Assembly (NCBI GenBank): GCA_947629985.1
Contig: CANRFV010000004.1
Span: 26,308 to 90,307 of the forward strand
Direction of reading: 5' to 3'
Origin: an uncultured Clostridia bacterium
Lineage (GTDB): Bacteria; Bacillota; Clostridia; Christensenellales; CAG-314
Length of the DNA: 64,000 bases
A program made the translations under genes and the position numbers. Positions 33,755 through 55,573 of this stretch are shown here, in pieces. The notes below the pieces were generated by a model, which worked only from the letters and a program-made list of their open reading frames with translations, made no database searches and had not been told where the DNA came from. The stretch's first letter is position 1. Every line of letters starts with the position of its first letter.

Positions 33755-33915
33755 GTATTAGCATAATAGATGTACAAAATCCGGACTTTTTAAGTTTTAA
33801 TTGCTCTTTTATTTAATACAAAATTCGACAAAAAAACAAAATCGAAGCGAAAACTATTTACATTTCAAAATCAAAGCTATATAATATTTTTATATTGTAC
33901 ATCTATTATGCTAAT
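33755..33915. repeat. 21-bp perfect inverted repeat pair bracketing the operon promoter
   Basis: attagcataatagatgtacaa (33755-33775) and its exact reverse complement ttgtacatctattatgctaat (33895-33915). Confidence 0.9.
33857..33885 (+). promoter_or_regulatory. Sigma-A-type promoter of the 12.8-kb operon
   Basis: TTTACA, 17-nt spacer, TATAAT (33880-33885). The right IR arm starts about 10 nt downstream of the -10 box. Confidence 0.55.
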
Positions 33916-34151: not shown

Positions 34152-34763
34152 ATGGCAGAAAAAATTATTCGATCACACCGTGAAAGGGTCAAAGCGGCAA
34201 AATCCTTGATCGCTTCTAATCCGTACTATCGTGCCGAACGCATTACAATTGTAGACAGGGAAGCGCTCGTGGAGTTTCTTCTTCTCGAGGACATTAAACG
34301 GCTATATGCGATGCGTCTGAAAAGAGAACAAAATCGTGTTATAATCGGTCCTATAGATCAAAGAGCCAAAGACAAGAACATAGAAAAGTTTTCTTGTATT
34401 ATCGATGTGTTTAACGCAGCAATCGGAGCCGCGGTCTCGGCAATAAACTCAGGAGACTACAAGCGTGTTTGGAAGGCGATTCCCGAAGGTGCATTAATGG
34501 CAGCGGCTAACAGCGTCAAAAATCTTCCCATACTTCGTGCTTTGGCAGTGGAAATGCTTCGCGATTTGTACAAAGATGCACAGGATGCTTCCAATATCAG
34601 TCATGGTTTGCTTGACGACATAAAAGAGTTGGACGAACACGATGTAAATGCTCGTAATTATTACAACATTCCGCTCACGCCGGAATCAATTGAAAATGTA
34701 ATCAGTGCTGTAGAAGCCGCAATACCCGACAAAAAAAGCACCAAAGCAACACCTAATACTTAA
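34152..34763 (+). CDS. Hypothetical alpha-helical protein (first gene of the operon)
   Basis: 203 aa, strong RBS (TAAGGAG). I recognise no family. Confidence 0.65.
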   Translation: MAEKIIRSHRERVKAAKSLIASNPYYRAERITIVDREALVEFLLLEDIKRLYAMRLKREQNRVIIGPIDQRAKDKNIEKFSCIIDVFNAAIGAAVSAINSGDYKRVWKAIPEGALMAAANSVKNLPILRALAVEMLRDLYKDAQDASNISHGLLDDIKELDEHDVNARNYYNIPLTPESIENVISAVEAAIPDKKSTKATPNT

Positions 34764-34784
34764 AATTACAAGGAGAAAATTATT

Positions 34785-35405
34785 ATGGCAAAAAAACAAA
34801 CAAATGATCAAAAGATTATTGCAGCATTGGACGCTCTCGACAAATCCGTTCGCAATCTTCAACAGTTTGGCGCCAAGTACGATGCTTATATCGACGAAGC
34901 GGCATTGCGGAACGATGACGCAAGGGCGAAGCAATTGATCAAACAAAAGATTCGCGTATATGCGCTTATCGAACAACTCAAAACGCTCAAGAGCAACATC
35001 GAACTCGGCGCATACACTGCGCAAGCAATTTCGGAACTCGGCAAACTCCCCGCGGCTATTGCGGGCTGTAAGGGGCTTCTTGCGGAATCTCCCGACTTTG
35101 CAAAACTCGGCAAGAGTATTTCGTCAATTTTCCAAGACATAAATCAATCCGAACAAGAACTTGCAAAATTGAACGATATCCTTAATCCCAAGCCCGTCGA
35201 AACTATTTCCAGCCGTTTGGACGGAACTTCGGCAGACGAAACCGAAAATACCGATCAATTCAAGGCCGAATACGCGGCAATGATAGAGCGAATCAAGGAC
35301 AAAATTGCTCCGGAGTCGGTATCTAAGCCGGGCGGATTGGACGTGTCCGCAACAGGAGACATCGATTATGCCGGCATAGTTGCCGAAGAGAACAAAAGGA
35401 AGTAG
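34785..35405 (+). CDS. Helical protein, candidate ESCRT-III/Snf7-like (PspA/Vipp1 superfamily)
   Basis: 206 aa. Long amphipathic helices (..AKQLIKQKIRVYALIEQLKTLKSNIELGAYTAQAISELGKLPAAIAGCKGLL..DFAKLGKSISSIFQDINQSEQELAKLNDIL..), a basic N-terminal half and an acidic C-terminal tail. It sits immediately upstream of a Vps4-like AAA+ gene. The fold assignment is by eye only. Confidence 0.45.
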   Translation: MAKKQTNDQKIIAALDALDKSVRNLQQFGAKYDAYIDEAALRNDDARAKQLIKQKIRVYALIEQLKTLKSNIELGAYTAQAISELGKLPAAIAGCKGLLAESPDFAKLGKSISSIFQDINQSEQELAKLNDILNPKPVETISSRLDGTSADETENTDQFKAEYAAMIERIKDKIAPESVSKPGGLDVSATGDIDYAGIVAEENKRK

Positions 35406-35413
35406 GTTAGTTT

Positions 35414-36610
35414 ATGCCGGAAGCAAGCATAATCGGTATTTTTAATAACAAGGTAAGCGCCTTTAACGATGCCGTAAATGCCGATGATGTTGACGCTGTT
35501 TGCGAAGTGGGCACCGAGATGCTTCGTATTGCTTTGGAGCAATGTGCCAACCCCAATGTCAGCGCAACACTCAAAGACACCTATCGCAAACAATGTGCCA
35601 CCGTCATCAGCCATTTTGTTCATTATGCAAAAAAATCGTCTGTTACAACCCGCACGGGTAACGACGAGAGCGGTAACGGAGCAGACCCGTACTATGCGGA
35701 AAAAAACTGGTTTTCAGACGATGTCCCGCCGCTCAACTTTACTCATATAATCGGCGCGCAGGAAGTTAAGGACGCCTTTATGGTGGATGTGGTGGCACCG
35801 CTTCGACCGGAGTTTCAGGCAACGTATCGCCGTTTCAGGGGAAATCAACTTGGCACGCAAATTTTGCTGTACGGTCCGCCCGGCACAGGCAAAACGCATA
35901 TTGTCAAATGCTTGGCAGGTGCGTTAAATTGCAAAATAGCCGTTGTGCCCACAAGCGAAGTATTGGCAAGCGTGGTCGGTGTGGCGGAAAAAAACATGCG
36001 AGATATTTTTGCCCAGGCGGAACAACTGGAACGCTGCATAATTTTCTTTGACGAAATCGACAGCTTATGCTCCGACAGAAGCAGTGATGATTCGAGACAT
36101 ACGAAATCCATACTTACCACAATGCTAACATGTATGGACGGCTTTATGAAAACAAAAAAGCCCAATCAACTTCGAATAATTGTTGCCGCCACAAATTTGC
36201 CTTGGAAACTCGATTCTGCGCTTAAACGGGGCGGAAGGTTTGAAACACAAATTTACGTTCCGCTTCCCGATGCGGACGCGCGCCAAAAGTTTGTCGAGCA
36301 GGATTTGAACAAAGTGCCGCATGCGCCCGATGTTACCGTCGAATATCTTGCAAACAGGCTAAACGGCTATGCGGGTGCAGACATCAGGGCGGTAATGAAG
36401 CAAATATCCAACGAACCTTTGCGCCGTGAAATTTTGAACATTATGAAGACGGGCAAAGAACGCGGCGAAATGGTTACGCTTGCGGATTGCGACAAAGTAA
36501 TATCTTCGTATATCAACGGCGTAACACCCGAAACGTTGCTCAGATTCAAGGCTTACGATCAGGGCATTTCCTATGAGCAATTACTAAAGCAAATCAAGGG
36601 GGACGATTGA
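35414..36610 (+). CDS. Classical/meiotic-clade (Vps4/spastin/katanin-like) AAA+ ATPase with helical MIT-like N-domain
   Basis: LLYGPPGTGKTH (Walker A), IIFFDEIDSLCSDRSSDDSRHTKSILTTMLTCMDG (Walker B region) and AATNLPWKLDSALKRGGRFETQIYVPLPD (SRH) closely parallel Vps4 blocks as I remember them. The ~75-aa helical N-domain precedes a linker. Confidence 0.75.
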   Translation: MPEASIIGIFNNKVSAFNDAVNADDVDAVCEVGTEMLRIALEQCANPNVSATLKDTYRKQCATVISHFVHYAKKSSVTTRTGNDESGNGADPYYAEKNWFSDDVPPLNFTHIIGAQEVKDAFMVDVVAPLRPEFQATYRRFRGNQLGTQILLYGPPGTGKTHIVKCLAGALNCKIAVVPTSEVLASVVGVAEKNMRDIFAQAEQLERCIIFFDEIDSLCSDRSSDDSRHTKSILTTMLTCMDGFMKTKKPNQLRIIVAATNLPWKLDSALKRGGRFETQIYVPLPDADARQKFVEQDLNKVPHAPDVTVEYLANRLNGYAGADIRAVMKQISNEPLRREILNIMKTGKERGEMVTLADCDKVISSYINGVTPETLLRFKAYDQGISYEQLLKQIKGDD

Positions 36611-37627
36611 TTGGTCGACCGAGACAAAATTGCAACATTTTATTTCAACGCGCGGGAATTTGTAAAACAAAACAATCCTAAAGCGGCGAGAGCGTACGTT
36701 CTCGCCATTTTGAACAATGCGGTTGCAACTTACAACCAAGCAAAAACCATTCTTGCCAAAGCAAAAACGCAAGTTTTTTTAGATACCTGGTTAGCGGTGT
36801 CGCGAGAATTGCGCACAAACGGCATAACAGACTTCGTCTTGAAGTGTTTTGGGTTACCTACAAACAAGAATGAACAGGTTTTGCCCAACAAGTCTGCCGA
36901 GCAACAACCCGAAATCTCGACAATTGCCGACACGCCCACTCAGCGCCACTTGCCGAGCAACGAAATAGACATTGCGGGGCTCATCGACGAATCTGCCGGC
37001 GCTCAAGGTTGGCGCGCCGAAGTATTTGAAAAAAACAAAATGGCTGTTGTGGGGATATCCGCTTCCAACTCGGAACATACGTCCACCGGCACAGGGTTCA
37101 TAATTTCGTCTAAAGGATATCTTCTAACCAACGATCACGTCGTTTATGATGAAAATGCGCAAGGATATTTTCCGAAAATTCAGATGACGTTTGCCGGGGA
37201 CAAAAAAAAGTACAAACTGACCGTTCTGTTTTCCGACAAAAATTCGGACGTGGCGCTTTGCTTTTTTGATCCGAACAACGTGGGAGAGTTTGCCGTCGTA
37301 AGGCGCATTGCCGATTACTCTCGGGTGTTACAGGGGGCGGAATGCCTTGTTATAGGCAACGCATTTGGCATGGGGCTTGCCCCGTTTGCGGGCGGCGTTC
37401 GTTTTACCAAGAGCAATGACGGTAATCTTGTGCATACCGCGCCGTCTAACCCGGGCGATTCCGGCGGGCCGGTATTAAACAGGCAAGGGGAATGTATCGG
37501 CATCAACAAGTCCAAGACGCTAACGGTAGACAACGTTTCGGCAGACGGCTACGTCAACGCCACGCCGATGGACAAGATCGACGAATTGCTGACCAAGTGG
37601 TGCAGTCAAAATGACATTGTGTTGTAA
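36611..37627 (+). CDS. Trypsin-like (S1/Trypsin_2) serine protease with MIT-like N-domain
   Basis: TTG start 9 nt after AAGGGGGA. N-terminal ~85-aa helical domain. The protease part reads ..GTGFIISSKGYLLTNDHVV.. (His), ..DVALCFFD.. (Asp), ..NPGDSGGPVLNRQGECIGIN.. (Ser). Confidence 0.75.
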   Translation: MVDRDKIATFYFNAREFVKQNNPKAARAYVLAILNNAVATYNQAKTILAKAKTQVFLDTWLAVSRELRTNGITDFVLKCFGLPTNKNEQVLPNKSAEQQPEISTIADTPTQRHLPSNEIDIAGLIDESAGAQGWRAEVFEKNKMAVVGISASNSEHTSTGTGFIISSKGYLLTNDHVVYDENAQGYFPKIQMTFAGDKKKYKLTVLFSDKNSDVALCFFDPNNVGEFAVVRRIADYSRVLQGAECLVIGNAFGMGLAPFAGGVRFTKSNDGNLVHTAPSNPGDSGGPVLNRQGECIGINKSKTLTVDNVSADGYVNATPMDKIDELLTKWCSQNDIVL

Positions 37628-40600
37628 TGTCGGGAGAGAGATGGCGAATGAAGAACGCAATTAAGGTAGGAAAATTTTTACAGATGCTTCAGGATAGTAC
37701 GTGGGAGTCCGACTATCCCCAATTATACGAAAAATATTACCGTCAGATAGCGGCTCTCCTTAGCGGATTTAATGATTGTACGCTCGAAGGATTGAGCAGT
37801 TTGGAAGGACTGACGGATAGTGCCAACTTTGCTTCGTTTCTCAGATGCGATACTCTGGGAGAAGAATCCGAAGATAGCAAAGAAAGAACAGTAGATAATA
37901 GGTTTTCTGCGATACTTGCCGATATTAAAACATGGCATGACAACGAAGTTAAGCGTTTACATAATAATAGTGCTACAGTCAAACAAGCAATCCGGGATGA
38001 CGCCAATTCAAAACGGGTAACACTTGTATCTGGGATTGTATCTGGGATCTTTACAGCGGCGTTTGGTCCCTTAGCGTATCTTCTCGGAATGTCGTACGAC
38101 GAAATCGCCTTTTATATCACGGGATTGGTTCCAATTATTCCTCTTGTCATTGCCCTTTTTGCCGGAATTTATAACGGAGTGCAGAATAAGAAATTTCATA
38201 GGACTTACGGCTGTTCCATTGCTAACGCGAAAAGGCTTATCATTACCGAAGAAGAATACAAAGCAGAAATCAAACAAGCGCGACAACTACGTTTAGTGAA
38301 ACATCATAGTGGCAACATACGCAAAGCAAAGCGCATATATAACAAATTGCTCAAGAGAAACTCAACGGATCCAAACTGTTTTGTTGGGTTGCTTGCACTT
38401 CTGTCCGATAATTTTACAAAATATTCTAGTAGACACAAGGAAGATAATTTAATTGAAGATATTGAAGCATCAAAAGGCGATGACAATTATTCGCGCTTAG
38501 ACGCAGACTACAAAGAGGATTATAAAAAATATACGGATGAAAAAGTTAACCCTTATAAACAAAGACAAAAGCAAAACCAAACAAGAAAAAAGGAACAACA
38601 TCGCGAGCGTGTTGCACACGCCATTTCGGTCGGGCAACAACTTGGAATATGTGCTGTTCTGCTACTTCCAACGCTTTTCTCGATCGCAGTTTTAGTTTTG
38701 GTATATTGCTTGCCCGTAAAGACATTTGACGATTGGACGGGTTGGCTATTCACAATTAGCTTTGCATTGGATTGCCTATCTGTGATAGCGGTAATTGTGC
38801 TTTGGATAGTACTTGCAGTAGCAGATAGAAATCCGGATTTTTCCGGTTTTGGGGCGGGACCTTTTGGTATAGTGGCAGCGGTATTTGGAATATGCGGGGG
38901 AAATGTTATTATTATTAGTATAGACATGCCGCACTGGCTGCCAATTCTGATGACGGTTGTTTGCCTTGCTATATGGTTAACTTCTCTTATTTGGGGTCTT
39001 GTAGACACAGACACATGCAAACGGCGTCTTCTTCTTGTTTGCATTTGCAGCGTTTTATTTGGTTGTGCGCTTCGCAGCGGTGGCTGGACTTTCTCGGAAT
39101 TTGAATCATATTATACTGAAAACCCGGACGGAACATATACATATCTTGTTTGGGATGAGAATGTGGAAATTTTGCAAATCCCATCCGAATATCAAGGAAA
39201 ACCTGTTACTGCTATCAGTCGAGCCGACAATGTCGATCTATTACACCTAAAATCTGTATTCATCCCCGAAAGTGTGACGTCGATTGAATTCGGGACTTTT
39301 TCCGGTTGTAGCGCGCTTACAAATATTACAGTGCCGTATGTGGGATATTATGATATATCCGGAGTTAATGGTTACGAGGGTGAAGCGGAGGCTTTGCGCC
39401 CCATTGGGTATTTGTTTGGCACTTCGCCTTACAGTGGGGGCGTAGCGACAGAGCAGGAGCATTGTTGGGGAAAGTATCTCAGCGGTGACAAGGCGGGCGA
39501 AGAATCTGAATTTTTCAACACTTACTATATTCCGGAATCACTGAAACATGTAACCGTGCTTGGCGGTGAAGTTTGCAACGGAGCGTTCTATGGCTGTACA
39601 AATCTTGAAAGCGTTACATTAGGTGCCGGAGTGACGGCGATTGGCAAACATGCGTTTCAAGATTGTACTTCTCTGGTGAGTGTCGCTATTGGCGAAGGCG
39701 TTACCGGTATTGGGGAAGATGCGTTTTTGAATTGTAGTGGACTTACGAGCATATATATCCCCGAAAGTGTGACGTCGATTGAATTCGGGACTTTTTCCGG
39801 TTGTGGCGCGCTCACAAATATTACAGTGCCGTATGTGGGATATTATGATATAGCCGGAGTTAAAGATTACGAGGGTGAAGCGGAGGCTTTGCGCCCCATT
39901 GGGTATTTGTTTGGCACTTCGCCTTACAGTGGGGGCGTAGCGACAGAGCAGGAGCATTGTTGGGGAAAGTATCTCAGCGGTGACAAGGCGGGCGAAGAAT
40001 CTGAATTTTTCAACACTTACTATATTCCGGAATCACTGAAACATGTAACCGTGCTTGGCGGTGAAGTTTGCAACGGAGCGTTCTATGGCTGTACAAATCT
40101 TGAAAGCGTTACATTAGGTGACGATGTGACTGCGATTGGCGAACATGCGTTTCAAGATTGTACTTCTCTTGTGAGTGTCGCCATTGGCGATGGCGTTACC
40201 GGTATTGGGAAAGACGCGTTTCTAAACTGCAATGCCGTTCAAAAAAACAAGGGCATTTTGTATGTTGGCCATTGGGTTGTCGGGTGTGATAACACTGTGA
40301 CAGAAGCAGAACTATCAAATGATGCTACGGGAATTGCAAATTATGCTTTTGCAGATTTCGCATCTCTTACTTCCGTAATCTTGAACGAAAAACTAAAGAT
40401 TATTGGAGAAGGCGTATTTCAAGGAACAGGAATAACCACAATGGTAATTCCACAATCGGTTGCGGTCATTGGCGCCAATGCTTTTAGTGGGTGTAAACTT
40501 TCAGAAGTTGTTTTTGATAATGTTGATGAATGGTATGCAGACAAAACTTATGTACCGTATTCCGACCTACTTGATGCTACAAAAGCCGCAAATTGCTTAA

Positions 40601-40638
40601 CTTCGACATATGTCGAATGTGTGTGGAAACGCGGCTAA
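37627..40638 (+). CDS. Giant polytopic membrane protein: cytoplasmic helical N-region, ~8 TM, extracellular BspA-type leucine-rich repeats
   Basis: 1003 aa. TM clusters at about aa 140-185 and 335-470. From ~aa 520 there are repeated ..IPESVTSIEFGTFSGC.ALTNITVP.. / ..AFYGCTNLESVTLG..VTAIG..AFQDCTSLVSV.. LRR_5-like units. Confidence 0.7.
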   Translation: MSGERWRMKNAIKVGKFLQMLQDSTWESDYPQLYEKYYRQIAALLSGFNDCTLEGLSSLEGLTDSANFASFLRCDTLGEESEDSKERTVDNRFSAILADIKTWHDNEVKRLHNNSATVKQAIRDDANSKRVTLVSGIVSGIFTAAFGPLAYLLGMSYDEIAFYITGLVPIIPLVIALFAGIYNGVQNKKFHRTYGCSIANAKRLIITEEEYKAEIKQARQLRLVKHHSGNIRKAKRIYNKLLKRNSTDPNCFVGLLALLSDNFTKYSSRHKEDNLIEDIEASKGDDNYSRLDADYKEDYKKYTDEKVNPYKQRQKQNQTRKKEQHRERVAHAISVGQQLGICAVLLLPTLFSIAVLVLVYCLPVKTFDDWTGWLFTISFALDCLSVIAVIVLWIVLAVADRNPDFSGFGAGPFGIVAAVFGICGGNVIIISIDMPHWLPILMTVVCLAIWLTSLIWGLVDTDTCKRRLLLVCICSVLFGCALRSGGWTFSEFESYYTENPDGTYTYLVWDENVEILQIPSEYQGKPVTAISRADNVDLLHLKSVFIPESVTSIEFGTFSGCSALTNITVPYVGYYDISGVNGYEGEAEALRPIGYLFGTSPYSGGVATEQEHCWGKYLSGDKAGEESEFFNTYYIPESLKHVTVLGGEVCNGAFYGCTNLESVTLGAGVTAIGKHAFQDCTSLVSVAIGEGVTGIGEDAFLNCSGLTSIYIPESVTSIEFGTFSGCGALTNITVPYVGYYDIAGVKDYEGEAEALRPIGYLFGTSPYSGGVATEQEHCWGKYLSGDKAGEESEFFNTYYIPESLKHVTVLGGEVCNGAFYGCTNLESVTLGDDVTAIGEHAFQDCTSLVSVAIGDGVTGIGKDAFLNCNAVQKNKGILYVGHWVVGCDNTVTEAELSNDATGIANYAFADFASLTSVILNEKLKIIGEGVFQGTGITTMVIPQSVAVIGANAFSGCKLSEVVFDNVDEWYADKTYVPYSDLLDATKAANCLTSTYVECVWKRG
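39262..40232 (+). repeat. 495-bp in-frame tandem duplication (2 copies) inside the LRR ectodomain
   Basis: 39262-39756 versus 39757-~40232. The first ~364 nt of each unit differ at only a handful of positions. The protein units are 165 aa. Confidence 0.9.
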
Positions 40639-40666
40639 TAAATGTTAATGAAAAAAGGAGAAACAT

Positions 40667-42196
40667 ATGACTTTTTCAGATGTATTTCGTGAAAAGTATA
40701 GATTGGTGCTTCGGGCTGCGAGAGCAAACGATCGTGATGCAACTCTTGCGGGATTGAATAATTTATACGACCTGTTTGCCGCGCAATATTCGCTCAACAA
40801 CGGCGATAGCATAGTAGTAAAGGCAAAACTTTCCTATTGGCAGGATGTGTTTGGCGGATATATTGAAATAATTCGCACAAACGGGCTGCAAGACAGGCGT
40901 GTGCAAAAGTTTTTCGGCATTATCGACGATGCGGACGTGCCATCGTTTGGAGACATCTTGAGCGGCAACGTCATTACGCCATTGCCGTTAACTCCGTCAT
41001 CGCCGTCCGTGGATATTGCAGGCATTGTAGACGCGGAGCGGAACGAGCAACCGACGGATTCGTCGCAAACTCAGCCTAGCGCTCCCGTTGGTTCGTCGCC
41101 GGTCGATTCGGATATTCCGCAACCTGTTGTCTCACCCCCGCGTGAAGCGCCCAAACAGCCGCCGTTGCAACCTTCCGCCGCAAACGACGGCGCAAAGGCG
41201 ATATCGGACGAAACCCCCGCCGAAACAATTGCCGCACCCGCTTTTACCCCCAACACGTTGGAAGGGTTTATCGGGCAGCAACACATAGTAAAGGTGTTGC
41301 TAAAGGAGATTGCCATAGCCAAGGCGGAAGGTAGACGTCATCTCGACAACATTCTGCTACTTGGCAATCCCGGTTTGGGCAAATCCACATTGATGAAACT
41401 GATCGCCGACAAGTTGGGGGTCAAATTCGAGTGGATGGATTGCTCGCAATATCACAACAGTCAGCAAGCGCTAAAGGCGCTGCAAAACTTTTTGCTGAAA
41501 ATAGCGCGCAACAACGAGCCTGTGGTAATTGCTTTTGACGAAATTCACTGCTTGCCGGAGATGTTGCAATCCAGCCTGCTTACCTTGTTGGAGAGCCGAA
41601 TTTACGTTTCTCCGCCCGATGTTAACGGGCAAATTAAGCGCATACCCATTGACGAATTTACATTTATTGCCGCAACCACCGACGATAACAAAGTGCTTTC
41701 CACAATCAAGGATCGTTGTCTTCGGTTAAAGTTTCAAATGAAGGACTACACGGCAGATGAATTGGCGCAGATTTACAGAACAAAAGTTTCGGCAATGGGG
41801 CTTACCATCACCGAAGAAGCAATACAAACTTGCATACCGCGCAGTCGCGGTTCAATGCGGTACGTCAACTCGTTTGTGGAAGGGTTGGGTCGAGAACTGT
41901 ATGACGCCGACGGCAACCGACTTTCCACCCACATAGACCTTGCAACCGCATTGCGCTTTTTTGAAGAGCGCGAAATCGACGATATGGGGTTGGAAAAAAG
42001 GGATTTGGAAATATTGTCCGTTCTCAACGAAATGTCGACGCCTATAGGGGCGGATGCCCTTGCGGCGCGAGTGGGCTTGGAACCGAAAAAGTACCTTTCC
42101 GAATACGAGCCCTATCTCATTCGTATTGGATTTGTTGATATCTCCGGCAGGGGCAGAAGTTTGACAGAAAAGGGGAAAGAATATTTGACTCGATAA
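40667..42196 (+). CDS. RuvB-like AAA+ ATPase (all three RuvB domains) with MIT-like N-domain and Pro/Ser linker
   Basis: ..LEGFIGQQHIVKVLLKEIAIAKAEGRRHLDNILLLGNPGLGKSTL.., ..VIAFDEIHCLP.., ..FTFIAATTDDNKVLSTIKDRC.., ..SRGSMRYVNSFV.. and a C-terminal winged helix ..GLEKRDLEILSVL..PIGADALAARVGLEPKKYLSEYEPYLIRIGFV.. follow RuvB block by block. The extra ~190 aa at the N-terminus are not found in RuvB. Confidence 0.75.
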   Translation: MTFSDVFREKYRLVLRAARANDRDATLAGLNNLYDLFAAQYSLNNGDSIVVKAKLSYWQDVFGGYIEIIRTNGLQDRRVQKFFGIIDDADVPSFGDILSGNVITPLPLTPSSPSVDIAGIVDAERNEQPTDSSQTQPSAPVGSSPVDSDIPQPVVSPPREAPKQPPLQPSAANDGAKAISDETPAETIAAPAFTPNTLEGFIGQQHIVKVLLKEIAIAKAEGRRHLDNILLLGNPGLGKSTLMKLIADKLGVKFEWMDCSQYHNSQQALKALQNFLLKIARNNEPVVIAFDEIHCLPEMLQSSLLTLLESRIYVSPPDVNGQIKRIPIDEFTFIAATTDDNKVLSTIKDRCLRLKFQMKDYTADELAQIYRTKVSAMGLTITEEAIQTCIPRSRGSMRYVNSFVEGLGRELYDADGNRLSTHIDLATALRFFEEREIDDMGLEKRDLEILSVLNEMSTPIGADALAARVGLEPKKYLSEYEPYLIRIGFVDISGRGRSLTEKGKEYLTR

Positions 42197-42216
42197 TAAT
42201 TTAAGGAGAAACACAT

Positions 42217-42435
42217 ATGAAAAACAGAAAATTTTGGTGGATGATTGCGATTGTTTGTATATTCATTTGTATTGCATTGGCTACCATAGTTTTATCGGCA
42301 CTATCCTTGGCAGACGTGTTTGGCGAAAACAACAATGTGGTTGAAGTTGTGATGATCGTCCTTGGCATTGTGAGTTGTTGCTGCGGGCTTGGTGCATTGA
42401 TTTACGAAATTTTGTCGGATAAAAAGAAAAAGTAA
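42217..42435 (+). CDS. Small 2-TM membrane protein
   Basis: 72 aa, strong RBS. The C-terminal ..GLGALIYEILSDKKKK echoes ..GISFFIYECISDKNKP in the next protein. Confidence 0.55.
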   Translation: MKNRKFWWMIAIVCIFICIALATIVLSALSLADVFGENNNVVEVVMIVLGIVSCCCGLGALIYEILSDKKKK

Positions 42436-42458
42436 AATACTAAAGGAGAGATAAAGAT

Positions 42459-45400
42459 ATGACAATTGAAGAATTAATCAGCGATATAAATTCGCTAATA
42501 GGAAATCTGTCAAGTGATGTGGAAAACTATACAGGCATACACAATTTATTGGAAAACACACTACAGGATCTCACAGCTTTTAGGAGATGTTGCGACGAAG
42601 AAAACTATTGTGTAGACAAAAAGGTGCGTAAGTTGGTCGAAAGTCGGAATCCGAATTTGTCAAGTCCTCTTACCTATACGTGGGCGAAACATTTATTTAA
42701 TGCCGTATCGGCTATGACCGATAAAAATTCTCAAAAGCCAAAGAGAAGTCGCCGTTATATTAGCATAATAATTATCACAGGAATATTATTGTCCGCCCTA
42801 TTGGGATTAAGTATAGCGAGTTTTTTCCTATTGCCGAAAAATGAAAGGAACCTGTATAGTCTTTTTACGATGTTGGTTGGGATAGCGGACTTTATTTGCG
42901 GTATTAGCTTTTTCATCTATGAGTGTATAAGCGACAAAAACAAGCCGTTGGCTACTAATGGCGATAATGCCCCAAGTGAAAGGACGTATTCTAAGAGCCA
43001 AAGAAAATGTGCATACATTTGTGCTGTCGGGGCATTTGTTTTGTCTATGTTTGCATTGGTAATTATGTTGATTTTGGCCTTTAAGCCGTTTCAAATACCA
43101 TATGAAAAGGCGCAATCAATGTGGGCGTGGTCTTGTATATCAAGCATTTTGTCTCTAATTGTTGTCGCGTTTGGAGTATTTCAACTAAAACGCGGCACAT
43201 TGGTTCAAGTATTTGTGTTGGTGACAGTAGTAGTTTGTATCGGTTCAATTGTCTTTCAACATCTTTTCAAACCGGTTGCGGCAAGGAACGATATTGTTGA
43301 ATATATTGCCAACGAAGACGGCTCGGCATATCAGGCAGTAATTATACCGCAGGATGTTGAAACAGACTATGTTATAGCGGCGAATTACGACGGTAAACCT
43401 ATTACAAGTATCGGACGAAAAGACCCCGAAAAACCGTTGTATATCAAATCGTTAGATATCGGCGCCAACATTACAACAATAGGCGACGAGTCCTTTGCAC
43501 ACAGCCGCGGATTGAGGCATATTACATTGCCGCAAAACGTTACCGAAATTGGCGCAAGAGCATTTTATGACTGCGTTGACCTTGTCGATGTTACGGTAAA
43601 CTGTAATTTAACCAAAGTGGGCAACGAAGTATTTGACAAGTGCAACGCGCTTTCCACTGTTTGGTGGAATAGTAACGGTAATTCTGTCGGATTTGGAGAT
43701 ATATTCGTGTCGTGTGAAAGTATCCGAACCGTTATCTTGGGACATTCGATTAATTCAATCGCAACCAATATGTTCAATAATTGTAAATCTATCGAAGAAG
43801 TTGTACTGTATGAAAATATCAAATCGATAGGTACCGGAGCATTTGCAAATTGCGATAGTTTGCAATCGGTATTTTATCGCGGGAACGCAGATCAATGGCA
43901 GAACATAACAGTGGGTAGAGATTGCCAATCGTTGATGTCTGCACAGATTTATTATTATAGTCAACAAGAGCCGCAATTAAGTGATGACGGACTTTCGTAC
44001 AATGGTAATTATTGGCACTCAGACGATAGTGGTTTGCCTGTTGTGTGGAAATATACTCCGCCTACTTACACGGTTAAATTTTATGCAGATGGTAAACTTT
44101 GTAAAGAAGTAACTTATATTAAAAATGATACGCATATAGAAGAGCCTGCAGTGCCGGCGAAAAAAGGTTATACCGGCATATGGGAAAATTATACTCTAAA
44201 TAACAATGATATTGTCGTAAACGCTGTTTATACGGCCAAAACATATACGCTTAATTTGGACTACAACGGCGCGGACGGCGAAAATAGCAAAAAATCTATT
44301 ACAGCAACATACGATCAACCCGTAGTGGGGTTACCGACACCAACAAAAACAGGTTATGCATTTGATGGTTGGTATATTGGTGAACAAAAAATATCTTCTT
44401 CAACCAAGTGGCAAAACGATGCCGAAGAATCTTATACGCTTATCGCACATTATAAGACAATATACGTTGTCAGATTCTATGTCGGGGGTAAACATTATAA
44501 GGATATTAAATATTTGGAAGGACAAAGTACAATAGAAGAGCCTGCAGTACCTGTAAAAAAAGGCTATACAGGCGCATGGGAAAAATATACACTAAATAAC
44601 AGCAATATTACCGTGAACGCAGTTTATACGGCTAAAACCTACAAGTTGATTTTTGACTACAATGGTGCCACAGACAGCGTCGGATTGGATTCGAAAATAG
44701 TAACGTATGGTGAAATAGTTGGAGATTTGCCACAACCTACGGCAGGCCTTGCCAATATATTTGTTGGGTGGTATATCGGCGATGTTTGTATCAAATCTTC
44801 AACTGTTTGGACATACGATGAGCAAGATGTTTATACCGTACAGGCACATTATGAATGTTTGGATTTCTATGGCGGCTCAGGAACGGAACAAAATCCGTTT
44901 TTGATTGAATCGGTTGATGATTTCTTGAACATCAAGCTTTATCCGACAGTTTACTATGAGTTAATTGCGGATATAGACATGACCGGTATTGATTATACAG
45001 TAATCAACTCTTTTTCGGGAAATTTTGACGGCAAAGGTCATTGGATTAACAACCTTTCTTTATATTCAAATGCTGTCGAAACTAACAAAATCGGCATATT
45101 CGGGGTCAATAACGGTACGGTGCGTAATTTGAATTTGCGAAACTGTTCGTTTACATTATCTCCGCCGCATCACAACAATACCGTAACAAATTATTGTGGA
45201 ACAATTGCGGGCGTTAACAACGGAACGATTGAAAATTGTCATATTCTTGAATCCAAGGTTATTTCGAATTCCAGCGATGTTGCGGATAAATTTATGGCGC
45301 AATTCAACGAAGATCCGCGTGAAATTGTACGTGGATCGGCAAATTGGGCAAAGTGGATAACACAAGAGTTTGCTGCGCACATATCAAGTTGGCCCGCTGT

Positions 45401-45878
45401 TCCAATGGGTGTTTTTGCAGGCGGTATTGTCGGACAAAATTCGGGCAATGTGATTAAATGCTCGTTCGGCGGCAAGGTTGAGGCGAACATGTATAATATG
45501 CATTGCTATTGCAACGACAACAAGGCTGGAACTAGTGGTAAGGGACAAGCCAATTGTTTTGCAGGCGGGTTGGCTGGACAAAACGAAGGAACAATATCGC
45601 AATCGGAAGCAAATGCACAAGTGCGTGCTTGGATTGAATTAAACAATAACGGAAATGGCAATGGTTGGGTTGGCGATATGTACGTTTGGGGAGTTTGTTA
45701 TGCTTGCGGATTAGTGGGTAGCAATGTCAATGGAACGGTAGATGGTACGTCTAATTGTACACAACAAGCGGATTACAGAATATTTGCTCCGCAATCTGTT
45801 TTCGGTCCACAATACAATTGGTCCACAAAAGGGCATGCCGACAACCTTACTATTGGCACATCGGATACTTATAAATAA
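42459..45878 (+). CDS. Giant polytopic membrane protein: helical N-region, TM block, BspA-type LRRs, Listeria-Bacteroides-type repeats and GLUG-motif domain
   Basis: 1139 aa. LRR_5-like units (..ITTIGDESFAHSRGLRHITLPQNVTEIGARAFYDC..). Two pairs of Flg_new/InlB-B-like repeats (..YTVKFYADGK..GYTGIWENY..; ..TGYAFDGWYIG..). C-terminal GLUG-like repeats (FAGGIVGQNSGNV, FAGGLAGQNEGTI, ACGLVGSNVNGTV). Confidence 0.7.
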   Translation: MTIEELISDINSLIGNLSSDVENYTGIHNLLENTLQDLTAFRRCCDEENYCVDKKVRKLVESRNPNLSSPLTYTWAKHLFNAVSAMTDKNSQKPKRSRRYISIIIITGILLSALLGLSIASFFLLPKNERNLYSLFTMLVGIADFICGISFFIYECISDKNKPLATNGDNAPSERTYSKSQRKCAYICAVGAFVLSMFALVIMLILAFKPFQIPYEKAQSMWAWSCISSILSLIVVAFGVFQLKRGTLVQVFVLVTVVVCIGSIVFQHLFKPVAARNDIVEYIANEDGSAYQAVIIPQDVETDYVIAANYDGKPITSIGRKDPEKPLYIKSLDIGANITTIGDESFAHSRGLRHITLPQNVTEIGARAFYDCVDLVDVTVNCNLTKVGNEVFDKCNALSTVWWNSNGNSVGFGDIFVSCESIRTVILGHSINSIATNMFNNCKSIEEVVLYENIKSIGTGAFANCDSLQSVFYRGNADQWQNITVGRDCQSLMSAQIYYYSQQEPQLSDDGLSYNGNYWHSDDSGLPVVWKYTPPTYTVKFYADGKLCKEVTYIKNDTHIEEPAVPAKKGYTGIWENYTLNNNDIVVNAVYTAKTYTLNLDYNGADGENSKKSITATYDQPVVGLPTPTKTGYAFDGWYIGEQKISSSTKWQNDAEESYTLIAHYKTIYVVRFYVGGKHYKDIKYLEGQSTIEEPAVPVKKGYTGAWEKYTLNNSNITVNAVYTAKTYKLIFDYNGATDSVGLDSKIVTYGEIVGDLPQPTAGLANIFVGWYIGDVCIKSSTVWTYDEQDVYTVQAHYECLDFYGGSGTEQNPFLIESVDDFLNIKLYPTVYYELIADIDMTGIDYTVINSFSGNFDGKGHWINNLSLYSNAVETNKIGIFGVNNGTVRNLNLRNCSFTLSPPHHNNTVTNYCGTIAGVNNGTIENCHILESKVISNSSDVADKFMAQFNEDPREIVRGSANWAKWITQEFAAHISSWPAVPMGVFAGGIVGQNSGNVIKCSFGGKVEANMYNMHCYCNDNKAGTSGKGQANCFAGGLAGQNEGTISQSEANAQVRAWIELNNNGNGNGWVGDMYVWGVCYACGLVGSNVNGTVDGTSNCTQQADYRIFAPQSVFGPQYNWSTKGHADNLTIGTSDTYK

Positions 45879-45904
45879 TCTAAAATATATTAAGGAGTAA
45901 ACCA

Positions 45905-46606
45905 ATGACAATCGACACACAAGCAATCAAAAATTTATTACAGCGCGAAGCACCGGAAAGCGACAGCGACGAGCAGTTGCTTTGTAGTGCCGACGGCAAA
46001 TTGAACGAGATTTTGCAACAGGCAACCGAAGAAGACTCGGCAGCGGTGGAGTCTATACGCGCATACGCCGAGTCCAACGAAACAAACAAGCGCAAATTGC
46101 TTGCTTTTTGCGCCAATTTCCAAGATCCAACCGTGCGCGGGCAACAGGCGGTTTGCGGCGGGGCGCAAATTCAATTACATGCTATGTTGGAAGATAGCGA
46201 ATTGTACCAATTGCAACAATTTGTCAAGAAACATCAATATGATATTTCTTTCCCGTCTACCGTGTACGAAATGATGGATCAACGCAATATGACCGCCCCG
46301 CAAGTGTATAGCAAAGCTATGATGAGTCGGCAAGACTTTGCGCGCGCAACCGACCCGCGTGGCAAAAATGTAACGCGCAGAGTGGTTTGGCAAATCATTA
46401 TCGGTTTGCACTGTACAATCGATGAGGCAGAAAGCGTTTTGTTTTCTGCGGGATATACAATGCACAAAACTCGTCTTGATTTGATAATGGAGTACTTTGT
46501 CAAACACAAAAACTACGATATGTATGCTATAAATGACGCCTTACAGAGTTGTAACGAAAAAATGTATCTGTTATACAGACAGGTAAGAGACGATGACGTC
46601 GGCTAA
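45905..46606 (+). CDS. Hypothetical protein with degenerate HTH-like C-terminal half
   Basis: 233 aa. ..MTAPQVYSKAMMSRQDFARATDPRGKNVTRRVVWQIIIGLHCTIDEAESVLFSAGYTM.. resembles a divergent XRE-type HTH module common in Clostridia. Last gene before the terminator. Confidence 0.5.
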   Translation: MTIDTQAIKNLLQREAPESDSDEQLLCSADGKLNEILQQATEEDSAAVESIRAYAESNETNKRKLLAFCANFQDPTVRGQQAVCGGAQIQLHAMLEDSELYQLQQFVKKHQYDISFPSTVYEMMDQRNMTAPQVYSKAMMSRQDFARATDPRGKNVTRRVVWQIIIGLHCTIDEAESVLFSAGYTMHKTRLDLIMEYFVKHKNYDMYAINDALQSCNEKMYLLYRQVRDDDVG

Positions 46607-46668
46607 GTACCGTACTAAAAATTAAAAACGCAAGTATCTCGCGCAAAAAATCGAATATTAAAAATTAT

Positions 46669-46696
46669 GGCGAAGCAATTTGGCTTCGCCTTTTTT
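46669..46696 (+). terminator. Rho-independent terminator ending the 34152-46606 operon
   Basis: GGCGAAGC-aatttg-GCTTCGCC followed by TTTTTT. Confidence 0.8.
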
Positions 46697-55412: not shown

Positions 55413-55426
55413 GCAAGTAAACAGGA

Positions 55427-55571: not shown

Positions 55572-55573
55572 AT

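What the first reader, a model, noticed from the sequence alone, without database searches (positions are those of the whole stretch)
34152..46696. Operon pairing an ESCRT-III-like protein with a Vps4-like AAA+ ATPase, a protease, a RuvB-like ATPase and two giant transmembrane LRR proteins, inside a bacterial integrative element
Seen in the sequence:
- Nine co-directional genes with strong RBSs and gaps or overlaps of -1 to ~25 nt.
- One consensus-like promoter (33857-33885) and one clean terminator (46669-46696).
- Gene 2 (34785-35405) is a 206-aa all-helical protein with a basic N-half and an acidic tail. Its heptad-like pattern (..IKQKIRVYALIEQLKTLKSNIELGAYTAQAISELGKL..KLGKSISSIFQDINQSEQELAKLNDIL..) looks like Snf7/CdvB.
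- Gene 3 is an AAA+ whose Walker-B-to-SRH blocks (IIFFDEIDSLCSDRS.., AATNLPWKLDSAL..RFETQIYVPLPD) match my memory of Vps4/spastin rather than FtsH/Clp.
- Next come a trypsin-like protease, a 1003-aa polytopic LRR protein, a complete RuvB-like ATPase, a 72-aa membrane protein, a 1139-aa polytopic LRR/GLUG protein and an HTH-like protein.

Established knowledge: an ESCRT-III polymer plus Vps4 is the membrane-scission module of archaea (CdvB/CdvC) and eukaryotes. PspA/Vipp1 are the known bacterial ESCRT-III relatives, but they are not partnered with Vps4-type ATPases.

Inference: I know of no described defence, secretion, conjugation or phage module with this gene set. One hypothesis is a membrane-remodelling or vesicle-budding apparatus encoded by the mobile element, with the LRR ectodomains as surface spikes or receptors. 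Another is an envelope-sensing abortive-infection system whose effectors are recruited to an ESCRT-III-like filament.
Basis: partly seen in the sequence, partly recalled or inferred. Interest (0 to 1): 0.9.

Follow-up and report, generated by a model that had tools for sequence, protein, structure and literature searches.

The report
Bacterial ESCRT-III-like operon with Vps4-like ATPase
A gut bacterium's mobile element carries a conserved, undescribed gene set that pairs a relative of the ESCRT-III membrane-remodelling proteins of eukaryotes and archaea with a Vps4-like ATPase, a protease and a DNA-motor-like ATPase; it is most likely a new kind of defence system, and it matters because reviews say bacteria lack such an ATPase partner.

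Summary
The nine co-directional genes (34152-46606) are real. Gene 2 belongs to the ESCRT-III superfamily, Snf7 branch: it has a sub-threshold Pfam Snf7 hit, and the top PDB neighbours of its AlphaFold model are almost all ESCRT-III.

Gene 3 is a classical AAA+ ATPase with a three-helix, MIT-like N-domain and a Vps4/spastin-type C-terminal helix. It branches beside the Vps4/spastin/katanin clade, not inside it. Its pore loop and arginine-finger region are atypical.

The core g1-g2-g3-g4 (trypsin-like)-g6 (RuvB-like) recurs in about 35 loci, down to 24% g2 identity. The giant LRR proteins are one of several interchangeable downstream cassettes.

New here:
- The protease and the RuvB-like ATPase share a homologous N-domain.
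- The conserved C-terminal helix motif of g2 recurs in their linkers.
- In one lineage a TIR protein replaces the RuvB-like gene.
- One locus abuts TIR and SIR2 genes.

The operon is cargo on a 24-kb tRNA-Val integrative element. I found no relatives in the phage or plasmid collections.

Best reading (about 45%): an undescribed conflict or defence system built on an ESCRT-III-like scaffold. Vesicle or transfer, membrane-repair and surface-protein-handling readings remain open.

The parts
33857..33885 (+). sigma-70-like promoter candidate upstream of g1
   Evidence: TTTACA-17-TATAAT, 11/12. Consensus match only. No Rfam element in the 265-nt leader.
34152..34763 (+). g1: conserved helical protein of unknown family (203 aa), first gene of the core
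   Evidence: No Pfam, NCBIfam, PADLOC or PHROG family. Present upstream of g2 in all 17 genome loci and in distant loci. No relation to g2 or to PDB sequences.
34785..35405 (+). g2: ESCRT-III-superfamily protein, Snf7 branch (206 aa)
   Evidence: Pfam Snf7 E=4.9e-5, 23.5 bits, below the 27.3 cut-off. 10 of 57 family members hit Snf7, best 3.4e-7. AlphaFold helices 7-41, 45-97, 105-133, 157-174, 195-205. Foldseek top PDB hits are CHMP2A/3, CHMP1B, Loki CHMP4-7, Asgard ESCRT-IIIB, PspA, Snf7 and CdvB2.
35358..35402 (+). g2 C-terminal helix motif (res 192-206, DIDYAGIVAEENKRK), a candidate MIM analogue
   Evidence: Conserved across the whole family, e.g. IDAITxMIDEENRK in homologues of 24-33% identity. 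Predicted helix 195-205 after a low-confidence linker.
35414..36610 (+). g3: classical AAA+ ATPase (398 aa), sister to the Vps4/spastin/katanin clade
   Evidence: Pfam AAA 1.2e-35. NCBIfam CDC48 161, FtsH 150 and CdvC 136 bits, all far below cut-offs. Alignment and NJ trees.
35414..35638 (+). g3 N-domain (res 1-75): three-helix bundle, MIT-like
   Evidence: AlphaFold pLDDT about 95 over res 11-70, helices 2-22, 26-44, 51-74. 11 of the top 50 Foldseek PDB hits are MIT domains; best TM 0.71/0.84 and rmsd 1.7 A to the S. solfataricus Vps4 MIT 2v6y. All E-values >= 0.9. No Pfam MIT hit.
36611..37627 (+). g4: cytoplasmic trypsin/HtrA-type serine protease (338 aa) with helical N-domain
   Evidence: Trypsin_2 1.7e-18 at res 160-298. 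H/D/S motifs TNDHV, SDVAL and GDSGGP are read in the translation. No TM segment. PADLOC hits to the protease effector domains of RT-Protease, LmuA and Avs1b.
36611..36862 (+). g4 N-domain (res 1-84), homologous to the g6 N-domain
   Evidence: hhalign probability 88%, E 2.9e-6 over 83 columns. A joint HMM finds both proteins in 8 further metagenome loci.
36965..36994 (+). copy of the g2 tail motif in the g4 linker (res 119-128, IDIAGLIDES)
   Evidence: Present in 17 of 18 close orthologues. Seen in L032 but not in L034 or L037.
37627..40638 (+). g5: polytopic membrane protein with BspA-type LRR ectodomain (1003 aa); variable cassette
   Evidence: LRR_5 1.8e-59. The hydropathy scan flags 10 partly overlapping hydrophobic windows, read as at least 6 membrane segments. 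Absent from 8 of 17 genome loci.
40667..42196 (+). g6: RuvB-like AAA+ ATPase with winged helix (509 aa) and N-terminal adaptor domain
   Evidence: RuvB_N 3.1e-17 and RuvB_C 1.3e-14. NCBIfam RuvB 160 bits against a 282 cut-off. Present after the protease in about 30 loci.
41009..41038 (+). copy of the g2 tail motif in the g6 linker (res 115-124, VDIAGIVDAE)
   Evidence: Strict pattern in 8 of 14 close orthologues, variants in the others.
42217..42435 (+). g7: 72-aa two-TM protein, related to the TM hairpin of g8
   Evidence: Two TM segments. BLAST to g8 res 114-162, 35% identity, E 1.7e-4.
42459..45878 (+). g8: 5-TM protein with LRR_5 and Listeria-Bacteroides repeats (1139 aa); variable cassette
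   Evidence: Its N-terminal module (res 60-186) matches stand-alone 211-234-aa proteins in other loci.
45905..46606 (+). g9: 233-aa protein without family; accessory
   Evidence: No family hit. Homologues near the operon in L003, L006, L010 and L052.
46669..46696 (+). intrinsic terminator-like hairpin ending the operon
   Evidence: 8-bp stem with 6 GC pairs, followed by TTTTTTGT.
32801..33712 (+). tyrosine integrase of the carrying element
   Evidence: Phage_integrase 1.4e-25. Orthologue directly upstream of g1 in L001, L005, L007, L015, L016 and L049.
30805..31108 (.). left att-like repeat of the 24-kb element
   Evidence: Contains a tRNA-3'-half-like remnant and matches 55280-55421 and 27224-27538.
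55280..55571 (-). right att-like repeat and tRNA-Val integration target
   Evidence: tRNA-Val 55496-55571. Repeat families D11 and D18.

Best explanation
What it is (well supported). This is a conserved bacterial module of five genes:
- g1: a helical protein of unknown family.
- g2: an ESCRT-III-like protein of the Snf7 branch.
- g3: a classical AAA+ ATPase with an MIT-like three-helix N-domain, sister to the Vps4/spastin/katanin clade.
- g4: a cytoplasmic trypsin-type protease.
- g6: a RuvB-like ATPase.

Interchangeable membrane or sensor-like cassettes follow the core. Here they are g5, g7 and g8, polytopic proteins with LRR ectodomains. In this window the module is cargo on a 24-kb integrative element at tRNA-Val.

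How it most likely works (inferred). It is a conflict system against phages or other mobile elements, probably of the abortive type.
1. The membrane proteins anchor the system at the envelope or sense events there.
2. On a trigger, g2, helped by g1, polymerises on the inner face of the membrane. This displays its acidic tail with the conserved C-terminal helix.
3. That helix acts like a MIM. It is read by the MIT-like domain of g3 and/or by the N-domain shared by g4 and g6.
4. In this clade the linkers of g4 and g6 carry a copy of the same motif. This suggests cis-autoinhibition that the polymer's tails relieve by competition.
5. The protease and the DNA motor are thereby concentrated and activated at the site. 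In a sister lineage a TIR protein takes the place of the DNA motor.
6. g3 spends ATP to extract subunits and reset or license the assembly.
For: ESCRT-III identity of g2.

g3 features.

Core synteny:
- 17 genome loci from Clostridia, Christensenella, Ca. Coproplasma, Acholeplasmatales and Anaeroplasma.
- Homologues down to 24% g2 identity keep the same order.
- 8 further metagenome loci do too.

Shared adaptor logic:
- The g4 and g6 N-domains are homologous (joint alignment; HMM hits on both proteins in every locus that holds them).
- The g2 tail motif is repeated in the g4 and g6 linkers.

Features typical of a conflict system:
- Conserved core plus variable cassettes: TM-LRR, DO-GTPase2-like, MMR_HSR1 GTPase, Hsp70/actin-fold and RyR. 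This matches the pattern described in PMC7159879.
- The RuvB-like gene is replaced by DUF6273 plus a TIR protein in L032/L033 and by other proteins in L045.
- L006 has TPR-TIR, SIR2_2 and SPFH/Band-7 genes directly upstream. L032 has Imm_superinfect nearby.
- The element here also carries a HEPN gene and adjoins an SF1-helicase/DUF2726 remnant.
- The g4 protease domain resembles the protease effectors of Avs1b, LmuA and RT-Protease in PADLOC.

Cargo behaviour: the module also sits among housekeeping genes without transfer genes (L039, L034). I found no relatives in PLSDB plasmids, INPHARED phages or IMG/VR.
Against: - No experiment exists, and no PADLOC system matches.
- The defence context rests on few loci: TIR/SIR2 neighbours in L006, and the TIR swap in a single lineage seen on two contigs.
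- LRR ectodomains are typical adhesins.
- In this window the operon fills half of an element that also encodes a VirD4-type coupling protein and an FtsK-gamma protein. A role in transfer therefore cannot be dismissed.
- The MIT identity of g3N rests on ranking and TM-scores, not on significant E-values. It is untested for g4N and g6N.
- The g3 pore loop 1 (SVVGVAE) lacks the aromatic residue used by Vps4 to thread substrates.
- g2 has no obvious hydrophobic N-terminal membrane anchor.
- The motif copies in g4 and g6 are limited to the window's clade.
- A RuvB-like motor is an unusual defence effector.
Confidence: 0.45

Rival explanations
1. Transfer or vesicle apparatus of the mobile element. 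The ESCRT-III-like polymer and the AAA+ remodel or cut the membrane. The RuvB-like motor moves element DNA into a bud or bridge. The LRR ectodomains bind recipient cells.
For: In the window the operon is 12.5 kb of a 24-kb element that also holds an integrase, a VirD4/TraG coupling protein and an FtsK-gamma protein. The same backbone genes travel with it in L002 and L003, in circularly permuted order. RuvB-type proteins are dsDNA translocases (established knowledge). Hosts include the wall-less Acholeplasmatales and Anaeroplasma. Weak NCBIfam hit of g7 to a Mycoplasma ICE pilin-like protein (E 0.0068).
Against: The module occurs without any backbone genes, next to housekeeping genes (L039, L034). 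The RuvB-like gene can be replaced by TIR. LRR proteins are dispensable in many loci. No relatives were found in plasmid, phage or IMG/VR collections. The element has its own DNA translocases.
Confidence: 0.15
2. Envelope-stress or membrane-repair module of the Psp type. The ESCRT-III-like protein patches damaged membrane. The AAA+ recycles it. The HtrA-like protease clears damaged proteins.
For: PspA and Vipp1 are bacterial ESCRT-III relatives that act in membrane maintenance (PMC8281802, PMC7619361). An SPFH/Band-7 gene, a reported PspA partner, lies upstream in L006. The protease is closest to HtrA/DegP models.
Against: Distribution is patchy and the module rides on mobile elements. There is no PspA_IM30 hit and no PspB/C or Lia partners. 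The protease has no signal peptide or TM segment. RuvB-like or TIR partners and hypervariable cassettes are not expected of a housekeeping repair system.
Confidence: 0.15
3. Dedicated biogenesis or quality-control system for the giant variable membrane or surface proteins encoded downstream. Extraction or insertion would be by the AAA+, and processing by the protease.
For: A small TM protein, a module of about 210-240 aa and a very large variable protein follow the core in most loci. Classical AAA+ ATPases extract membrane proteins (established knowledge: FtsH, Msp1, p97).
Against: It does not explain the ESCRT-III-like protein, the RuvB-like winged-helix ATPase or the TIR variant. Several downstream proteins are cytoplasmic (DO-GTPase-like, Hsp70-like).
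Confidence: 0.1

Closest known systems
Archaeal Cdv and eukaryotic ESCRT-III/Vps4 (CdvB/Snf7-CHMP polymers with the CdvC/Vps4 MIT-AAA+ ATPase)
   Same: An ESCRT-III-fold protein with a basic N-half, an acidic C-half and a C-terminal helix is encoded next to a single-ring classical AAA+. That AAA+ has a three-helix N-domain and a C-terminal helix. Like archaeal CdvC, g3 has no beta-domain.
   Different: g3 is not a Vps4 orthologue. It is sister to the whole meiotic clade with moderate support. It has an RGGR-type SRH and no aromatic pore-loop residue, and scores 136 bits against the 650-bit CdvC cut-off. There is only one ESCRT-III paralogue and no CdvA or ESCRT-II. Extra fixed partners are g1, a protease and a RuvB-like ATPase. 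The module is carried by mobile elements in Bacillota.
Bacterial PspA/Vipp1 (IM30) systems
   Same: [quoted passage not shown]
   Different: g2 hits Pfam Snf7, not PspA_IM30. None of the Psp or Lia partners is present. Reviews state that a Vps4-like ATPase appears absent from bacterial systems (PMC7619361), whereas here a dedicated classical AAA+ is strictly linked.
Eukaryotic MIT-domain enzymes recruited to ESCRT-III tails (calpain-7, spastin, AMSH/USP8, ULK3; PMC9477494)
   Same: The logic is the same. Several different enzymes carry a small helical N-domain, and the polymer subunit carries a short C-terminal helix motif. A protease with such a domain parallels calpain-7 (own knowledge).
   Different: Binding is not shown. 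g4N and g6N are not demonstrably MIT. The motif (I/V)D(Y/I)xG(I/L)(I/V)xEEN differs from the MIM1 and MIM2 consensus. Copies of the motif lie inside the enzymes themselves.
AAA+ plus protease defence pairs (IetAS) and protease-effector defence proteins (Avs1, Lamassu-protease, RT-protease)
   Same: An adjacent AAA+ ATPase and serine protease. PADLOC IetA models hit g3 (1e-34), and protease-effector models hit g4.
   Different: The IetA hit covers only the generic AAA core. NCBIfam IteA scores 111 bits against a 510 cut-off. IetS is a subtilase and g4 is trypsin-like. IetAS has no ESCRT-III-like, g1 or RuvB-like component.
NTP-dependent 'ternary' conflict systems with variable effectors (Kaur et al. 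2020, PMC7159879)
   Same: The same pattern of a conserved NTPase core plus hypervariable partners. DO-GTPase-like, Hsp70-like and trypsin-like components occur in the loci.
   Different: That paper does not mention ESCRT or PspA (0 occurrences). The core here is different: ESCRT-III-like, classical AAA+ and RuvB-like.

Membership tests
ESCRT-III superfamily | Helical hairpin (alpha1-alpha2/3) followed by alpha4, alpha5 and a C-terminal helix | tested here: met
   AlphaFold helices 7-41, 45-97, 105-133, 157-174, 195-205, pLDDT 75.8. 21 of the top 22 Foldseek PDB hits are ESCRT-III family structures; best E 0.014, prob 1.0.
ESCRT-III superfamily | Profile match to Pfam Snf7 or PspA_IM30 at the curated threshold | tested here: inconclusive
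   Snf7 E 4.9e-5 but 23.5 bits against a 27.3 cut-off. 10 of 57 family members hit Snf7, best 3.4e-7, and none hits PspA_IM30. PDB profile search: CHMP2A at E 0.082, collinear over 8-136.
ESCRT-III superfamily | Basic N-terminal half and acidic C-terminal half | tested here: met
   pI 9.41 for res 1-100 against 4.49 for res 101-206.
ESCRT-III superfamily | Polymerisation on membranes | not testable with these tools
   Needs purified protein with liposomes, or in-cell imaging.
Vps4/CdvC (meiotic-clade AAA+) | N-terminal MIT domain | tested here: inconclusive
   Confident three-helix bundle. 11 of the top 50 Foldseek hits are MIT domains, with TM up to 0.84 and rmsd 1.7 A to 2v6y, but all E >= 0.9. 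No Pfam MIT hit. hhalign against 2 verified MIT sequences was negative.
Vps4/CdvC (meiotic-clade AAA+) | AAA domain nested in the Vps4/spastin/katanin clade | tested here: inconclusive
   NJ on 186 gap-free columns with PDB-verified references. g3 plus the meiotic clade is supported at 0.77 and 0.67. g3 plus Vps4 gets 0.00-0.05. Identity is 33-37% to all references.
Vps4/CdvC (meiotic-clade AAA+) | Pore loop 1 with an aromatic residue (K-W/Y-x-G-E) | tested here: not met
   S-V-V-G-V-A-E. Most of the loop is invariant or nearly invariant in the orthologue alignments. N-L-V-G-D in distant homologues.
Vps4/CdvC (meiotic-clade AAA+) | SRH of the RRRF/RRF type without the two-residue insertion | tested here: not met
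   KRGGRFE aligns with the RPGRFD/RFGRFD of PAN, FtsH and p97.
Vps4/CdvC (meiotic-clade AAA+) | C-terminal helix after the lid domain | tested here: met
   VTLADCDKVISSYINGVTPETLLRFKAYDQG aligns with spastin [33 protein letters not shown] and the Vps4 C-terminus. Pfam Vps4_C gives no hit.
Vps4/CdvC (meiotic-clade AAA+) | Curated family score (NCBIfam CdvC NF041006) | tested here: not met
   136.4 bits against a 650 cut-off. CDC48 (160.8) and FtsH (150.3) models score higher.
RuvB (Holliday-junction motor) | RuvB_N AAA+ domain plus C-terminal winged helix | tested here: met
   RuvB_N 3.1e-17 and RuvB_C 1.3e-14.
RuvB (Holliday-junction motor) | Equivalog score and RuvA partner | tested here: not met
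   160.5 and 149.6 bits against cut-offs of 282 and 299. There is an extra 190-residue N-terminal region, and no RuvA-like gene in the operon.
IetAS defence system | IetA ATPase at the curated score plus an IetS subtilase | tested here: not met
   NCBIfam IteA 111 bits against a 510 cut-off. The partner protease is trypsin-like, not S8.
Psp system | PspA_IM30 protein with PspB/C/F or Lia partners | tested here: not met
   No PspA_IM30 hit in g2 or in 57 relatives. No such partners in the operon.

The most novel reading that the evidence does not exclude
The module is a true membrane-scission machine used by the integrative element to spread. ESCRT-III-like and Vps4-like proteins bud vesicles or bridges. 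The RuvB-like motor loads them with element DNA. The LRR ectodomains serve as spikes. This would be a bacterial counterpart of ESCRT-dependent DNA-carrying vesicles of archaea. A less radical version, which I rate at about 0.4, is a bacterial immune system that assembles its effectors on an ESCRT-III filament through an MIT/MIM-like code.
Probability: 0.1. Interest if true: 0.95.

Novelty: new variant of a known kind. Interest (0 to 1): 0.8.

Why it matters
Recent reviews state that bacteria have ESCRT-III relatives (PspA, Vipp1) but apparently no Vps4-like ATPase, and that it is unclear what remodels bacterial ESCRT-III polymers (PMC7619361; PMC8281802).

This module gives a strictly linked pair in Bacillota: a Snf7-type ESCRT-III-like protein and a classical AAA+ ATPase with an MIT-like domain. 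It adds two enzymes that share an adaptor domain, and a tail motif that looks like a recruitment code.

That makes three questions directly testable in a compact operon:
- Does a bacterial ESCRT-III/AAA+ cycle exist?
- Does tail-mediated recruitment of enzymes predate eukaryotes, or did it arise twice?
- Can an ESCRT-III polymer serve as an immune assembly platform?

If it is a defence system, it is a new type with an unusual set of effectors.

Tried and rejected
- The search for related loci with family alignments A1 and A2 failed because no stretch was conserved enough. The single protein worked.
- The search for homologous proteins with g4 residues 1-140 returned one protein only. No deep alignment was therefore available for the g4/g6 N-domain.
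The last AlphaFold job went to g3N, so the fold of g4N/g6N was not predicted.
- MIT tests by sequence were all negative: Pfam at E<=10 on 30 N-domains, PDB profile searches (only designed helical repeats), and hhalign against verified Vps4/CdvC MIT sequences.
- g3N shows no detectable relation to g4N or g6N.
- g1 is not a second ESCRT-III: no relation to g2 and no PDB relative.
- There is no second ESCRT-III-like ORF in the window.
- No relatives of g2 in PLSDB or INPHARED, and none of g2 or g3 in IMG/VR beyond generic AAA+ at about 30% identity. A phage-encoded origin is therefore rejected.
- No Rfam element in the leader or elsewhere in the element except the three tRNAs.
- IetAS membership is rejected.
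- GLUG in g8 and HTH in g9 could not be confirmed.

Full report
**1. Observation**

The nine ORFs are present exactly as described, all on the + strand. They are separated by -1 to 28 nt. Eight of nine have a 5/6 Shine-Dalgarno-like site, and g5 is coupled to g4 by a one-base overlap. A near-consensus promoter lies at 33857-33885 and a hairpin plus T-run at 46669-46696 bracket them.

- g3: a classical AAA domain.
- g4: Trypsin_2/HtrA-like, with a GDSGGP serine motif.
- g5 and g8: BspA-type LRR_5; g8 also has Listeria-Bacteroides repeats.
- g6: RuvB_N plus the RuvB winged helix.

A hydropathy scan flags 10 partly overlapping hydrophobic windows in g5 (I read at least 6 membrane segments), two in g7, five in g8 and none in g2, g3, g4 or g6. 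A GLUG domain in g8 and an HTH in g9 were not confirmed.

**2. Gene 2 is an ESCRT-III-superfamily protein**

- Pfam Snf7 matches residues 8-81 at E 4.9e-5 but below the curated cut-off.
- Of 57 family members spanning 21-71% identity, 10 hit Snf7 (best 3.4e-7) and none hits PspA_IM30.
- An AlphaFold model built on that alignment (pLDDT 75.8) has the ESCRT-III helix plan: 7-41, 45-97, 105-133, 157-174, and a last short helix 195-205.
- Against 350,542 PDB chains, its best Foldseek matches are almost all ESCRT-III proteins: CHMP2A/CHMP3, CHMP1B, Loki CHMP4-7, Asgard ESCRT-IIIB, PspA, Snf7, CdvB2 and Vipp1. E-values are weak (best 0.014). That is usual for helical hairpins caught in different open or closed states, and the ranking is unambiguous.
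- The N-half is basic (pI 9.4) and the C-half acidic (pI 4.5).
- It is the only such gene in the window.

**3. Gene 3 is Vps4-like in architecture but is not a Vps4 orthologue**

Curated models score CDC48 (161 bits) and FtsH (150) above CdvC (136, covering residues 69-381). All are far below their cut-offs.

I checked reference sequences recalled from memory against the PDB before using them. Exact or near-exact matches were yeast Vps4 5uie, human spastin 5z6q, katanin 5zql, PAN 3h4m, FtsH 1lv7, and M. sedula and A. hospitalis Vps4/CdvC 4d80 and 4lcb. g3 is 33-37% identical to all of them.

Features shared with the meiotic clade:
- The PW in ATNLPWKLDSA.
- The short Walker-B-to-helix segment.
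- A lid insertion.
- A C-terminal helix (VTPETLLRFKAYDQG against spastin [17 protein letters not shown]).

Features that differ:
- KRGGRFE carries the two extra residues of p97, PAN and FtsH.
- Pore loop 1 is SVVGVAE, with no aromatic residue, and the loop is largely invariant across 47 orthologues.
- There is no beta-domain. The same holds for archaeal CdvC and spastin.

Neighbour-joining trees on 186 gap-free columns place the g3 family as sister to Vps4+spastin+katanin(+CdvC) with 77% and 67% bootstrap. It never groups with Vps4 itself.

The N-terminal 75 residues fold, with pLDDT about 95, into three helices. No Foldseek hit is significant. However, 11 of the top 50 are MIT domains (VPS4A/B, NRBF2, spartin, spastin, MITD1). 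The best superposition in the list is the S. solfataricus Vps4 MIT domain, with TM 0.71/0.84 and rmsd 1.7 A over 73 columns. Sequence methods do not detect MIT. I call the domain MIT-like, not MIT.

**4. The conserved unit is g1-g2-g3-g4-g6, not the nine genes**

- In 17 genome loci, g1-g4 are always present and in order. The hosts are uncultured Clostridia from rabbit gut, Christensenella, Ca. Coproplasma, Acholeplasmatales and Anaeroplasma.
- g6 follows in 15 of them. The other two loci end or are unresolved.
- g5 is absent from eight of the 17, and g7-g9 are sporadic.
- g2 homologues of only 24-33% identity keep the same order with RuvB_N/WHD_RuvB proteins (L034, L038, L039, L043, L044).
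- Eight more metagenome loci do the same. Two of them have the protease moved downstream.
- The exhaustive representative search found 111 clusters at E<=1e-3, of which 45 at E<=1e-10. This is a modest family.

**5. New anatomical findings**

(a) The N-terminal 84 residues of the protease and 92 residues of the RuvB-like ATPase are homologous. hhalign gives probability 88%, E 2.9e-6, over 83 columns. A joint profile recognises both proteins in every locus that contains them.

(b) The g2 family ends in a conserved helix motif, (I/V)D(Y/A)x(G/T)(I/L/M)(I/V)xEEN(K/R)K. In the window's clade the same motif recurs in the disordered linkers that follow the N-domains:
- g4: IDIAGLIDES, in 17 of 18 orthologues.
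- g6: VDIAGIVDAE, strict pattern in 8 of 14, variants in the rest.

(c) The N-terminal cytoplasmic and TM-hairpin modules of g5 and g8 match stand-alone 211-234-aa proteins in other loci, and g7 matches the g8 hairpin. A membrane anchor is therefore a semi-conserved sixth component.

(d) g1 has no detectable relative.

**6. What follows the core varies**

Besides TM-LRR proteins, the downstream partners include:
- DO-GTPase2-like proteins of 1048-1260 aa (L007, L014, L015).
- A 940-aa MMR_HSR1-type GTPase (L012).
- An Hsp70/actin-fold protein (L016).
- A RyR-domain membrane protein (L003).

In L032/L033 the RuvB-like gene is replaced by a DUF6273 protein and a TIR-domain protein. In L045 it is replaced by two proteins of about 255 aa. 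L006 has a TPR-TIR protein, a SIR2_2 protein and an SPFH/Band-7 zinc-ribbon protein directly upstream.

A fixed NTPase core with swappable effectors and hypervariable partners is the pattern described for prokaryotic conflict systems (PMC7159879). That paper contains no mention of ESCRT or PspA.

**7. Carrier**

Three tRNA genes lie at 55496-55730 on the - strand. Blocks that begin with a tRNA-3'-half-like remnant occur at 55280-55421, 30805-31108 and 27224-27538. They delimit a 24-kb element (about 31.1-55.3 kb) and a 3.3-kb remnant in tandem at tRNA-Val.

The 24-kb element holds the following:
- The integrase.
- The operon.
- DUF1292.
- ClpP.
- A 526-aa protein of unknown family.
- A VirD4/TraG coupling protein.
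- An FtsK-gamma protein.
- A small LRR protein.
- A HEPN protein.

G+C drops from about 50% to 38-47% across it. The backbone genes accompany the operon in L002, in permuted order and with a full FtsK/SpoIIIE, and in L003. Elsewhere the module sits next to housekeeping genes with no backbone genes in view (L039, L034). No relative was found in plasmid, phage or IMG/VR collections. The module therefore behaves as cargo.

**8. Mechanism**

Shown:
- The folds and families of g2, g3, g4 and g6.
- The synteny.
- The shared N-domain.
- The shared motif.
- The variability of the partners.

Inferred by analogy with ESCRT-III/MIT biology (PMC9477494) and with conflict-system organisation:
- g2 polymerises at the membrane, anchored or triggered by the TM proteins and g1.
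- Its tail helix recruits g3 through the MIT-like domain and/or recruits g4 and g6 through their common N-domain.
- The motif copies within g4 and g6 suggest autoinhibition that is relieved by competition with polymer tails.
- The protease and the DNA motor (or TIR) act as effectors, and g3 resets or licenses the assembly.

I put this at about 0.45. The rivals are a transfer or vesicle apparatus (0.15), Psp-like membrane repair (0.15) and handling of the giant surface proteins (0.10). Each is listed with the result that would refute it.

**9. Comparison and novelty**

The closest known system is archaeal and eukaryotic ESCRT-III/Vps4. The pairing and the domain plan are the same, but g3 fails several Vps4-defining features and the fixed partners are new. 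PspA/Vipp1 systems share only the superfamily. IetAS shares only the AAA+-plus-protease idea and fails the curated scores.

Literature searches found no description of this gene set. The PSP comparative study notes other bacterial Snf7/PspA-AAA+ associations, and notes Vps4 transfers in which snf7 is displaced. It does not mention RuvB or trypsin. A 2025 review states that a Vps4-like ATPase appears absent in bacteria.

I rate it a new variant of a known kind, with high interest (0.8).

Noticed in passing
window 27224-27538, 30805-31108, 55280-55421, 55496-55730: Three att-like blocks, each starting with a tRNA-3'-half-like remnant, lie next to a tRNA-Val/Glu/Met cluster. They imply two elements integrated in tandem at tRNA-Val: a 24-kb element with the operon and a 3.3-kb remnant.
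   Followed up: partly
window 27678-30340 (- strand): An SF1 helicase (AAA_11/AAA_12) with a DUF2726 nuclease-like C-terminus is split into two overlapping ORFs (27678-29267 and 29240-30340). It is probably a frameshifted defence-type gene, and it is flanked by near-identical 300-nt repeats.
   Followed up: no
window 46782-52460: DUF1292, ClpP, a 526-aa protein with no family, a VirD4/TraG coupling protein and an FtsK-gamma protein with D/E-rich 9-nt repeats (51550-51646). The set also travels with the operon in L002 (upstream, with a full FtsK/SpoIIIE) and in L003. ClpP plus the 526-aa protein may be a second protease module.
   Followed up: partly
window 39257-39556 and 39752-40051; 44136-44272 and 44532-44668: g5 contains a 98%-identical 300-nt internal duplication spaced 495 nt, a recent duplication of an LRR block. 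g8 has an 80%-identical 137-nt repeat spaced 396 nt, in its Listeria-Bacteroides repeat modules.
   Followed up: no
window 53271-55223: A 396-aa LRR_5 protein and a HEPN (pEK499_p136) protein sit at the right end of the element.
   Followed up: no
window 55889-56316: A tandem duplication of about 210 nt (repeat families D7, D9 and D10, 82-95% identical) lies just right of the tRNA cluster. It is unexplained.
   Followed up: no
L006 2-4958: A TPR-TIR protein (701 aa), a SIR2_2 protein (340 aa) and an SPFH/Band-7 protein with zinc ribbons (590 aa) lie directly upstream of the operon in this Clostridia genome.
   Followed up: partly
L054 5826-10984: An unrelated 100-kb metagenome contig has an ESCRT-III-like gene (weak PspA_IM30 and Snf7 hits; hit by the g2-family HMM at E 4.9e-5). 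Next to it is an AAA+ with weak MIT and Vps4_C hits, and a second AAA+ with Vps4_C lies nearby. This is a more canonical ESCRT-III/Vps4 pair of unknown taxon.
   Followed up: partly
L038 9329-9973 and 15225-15623: This distant locus encodes two g1-like paralogues. One is at the usual position and one is downstream of the RuvB-like gene.
   Followed up: no
window 33886-34151: A leader of about 265 nt lies between the promoter-like site and g1. It has no Rfam match and holds a 72-codon ORF (33908-34126) that has no family or conservation evidence.
   Followed up: partly
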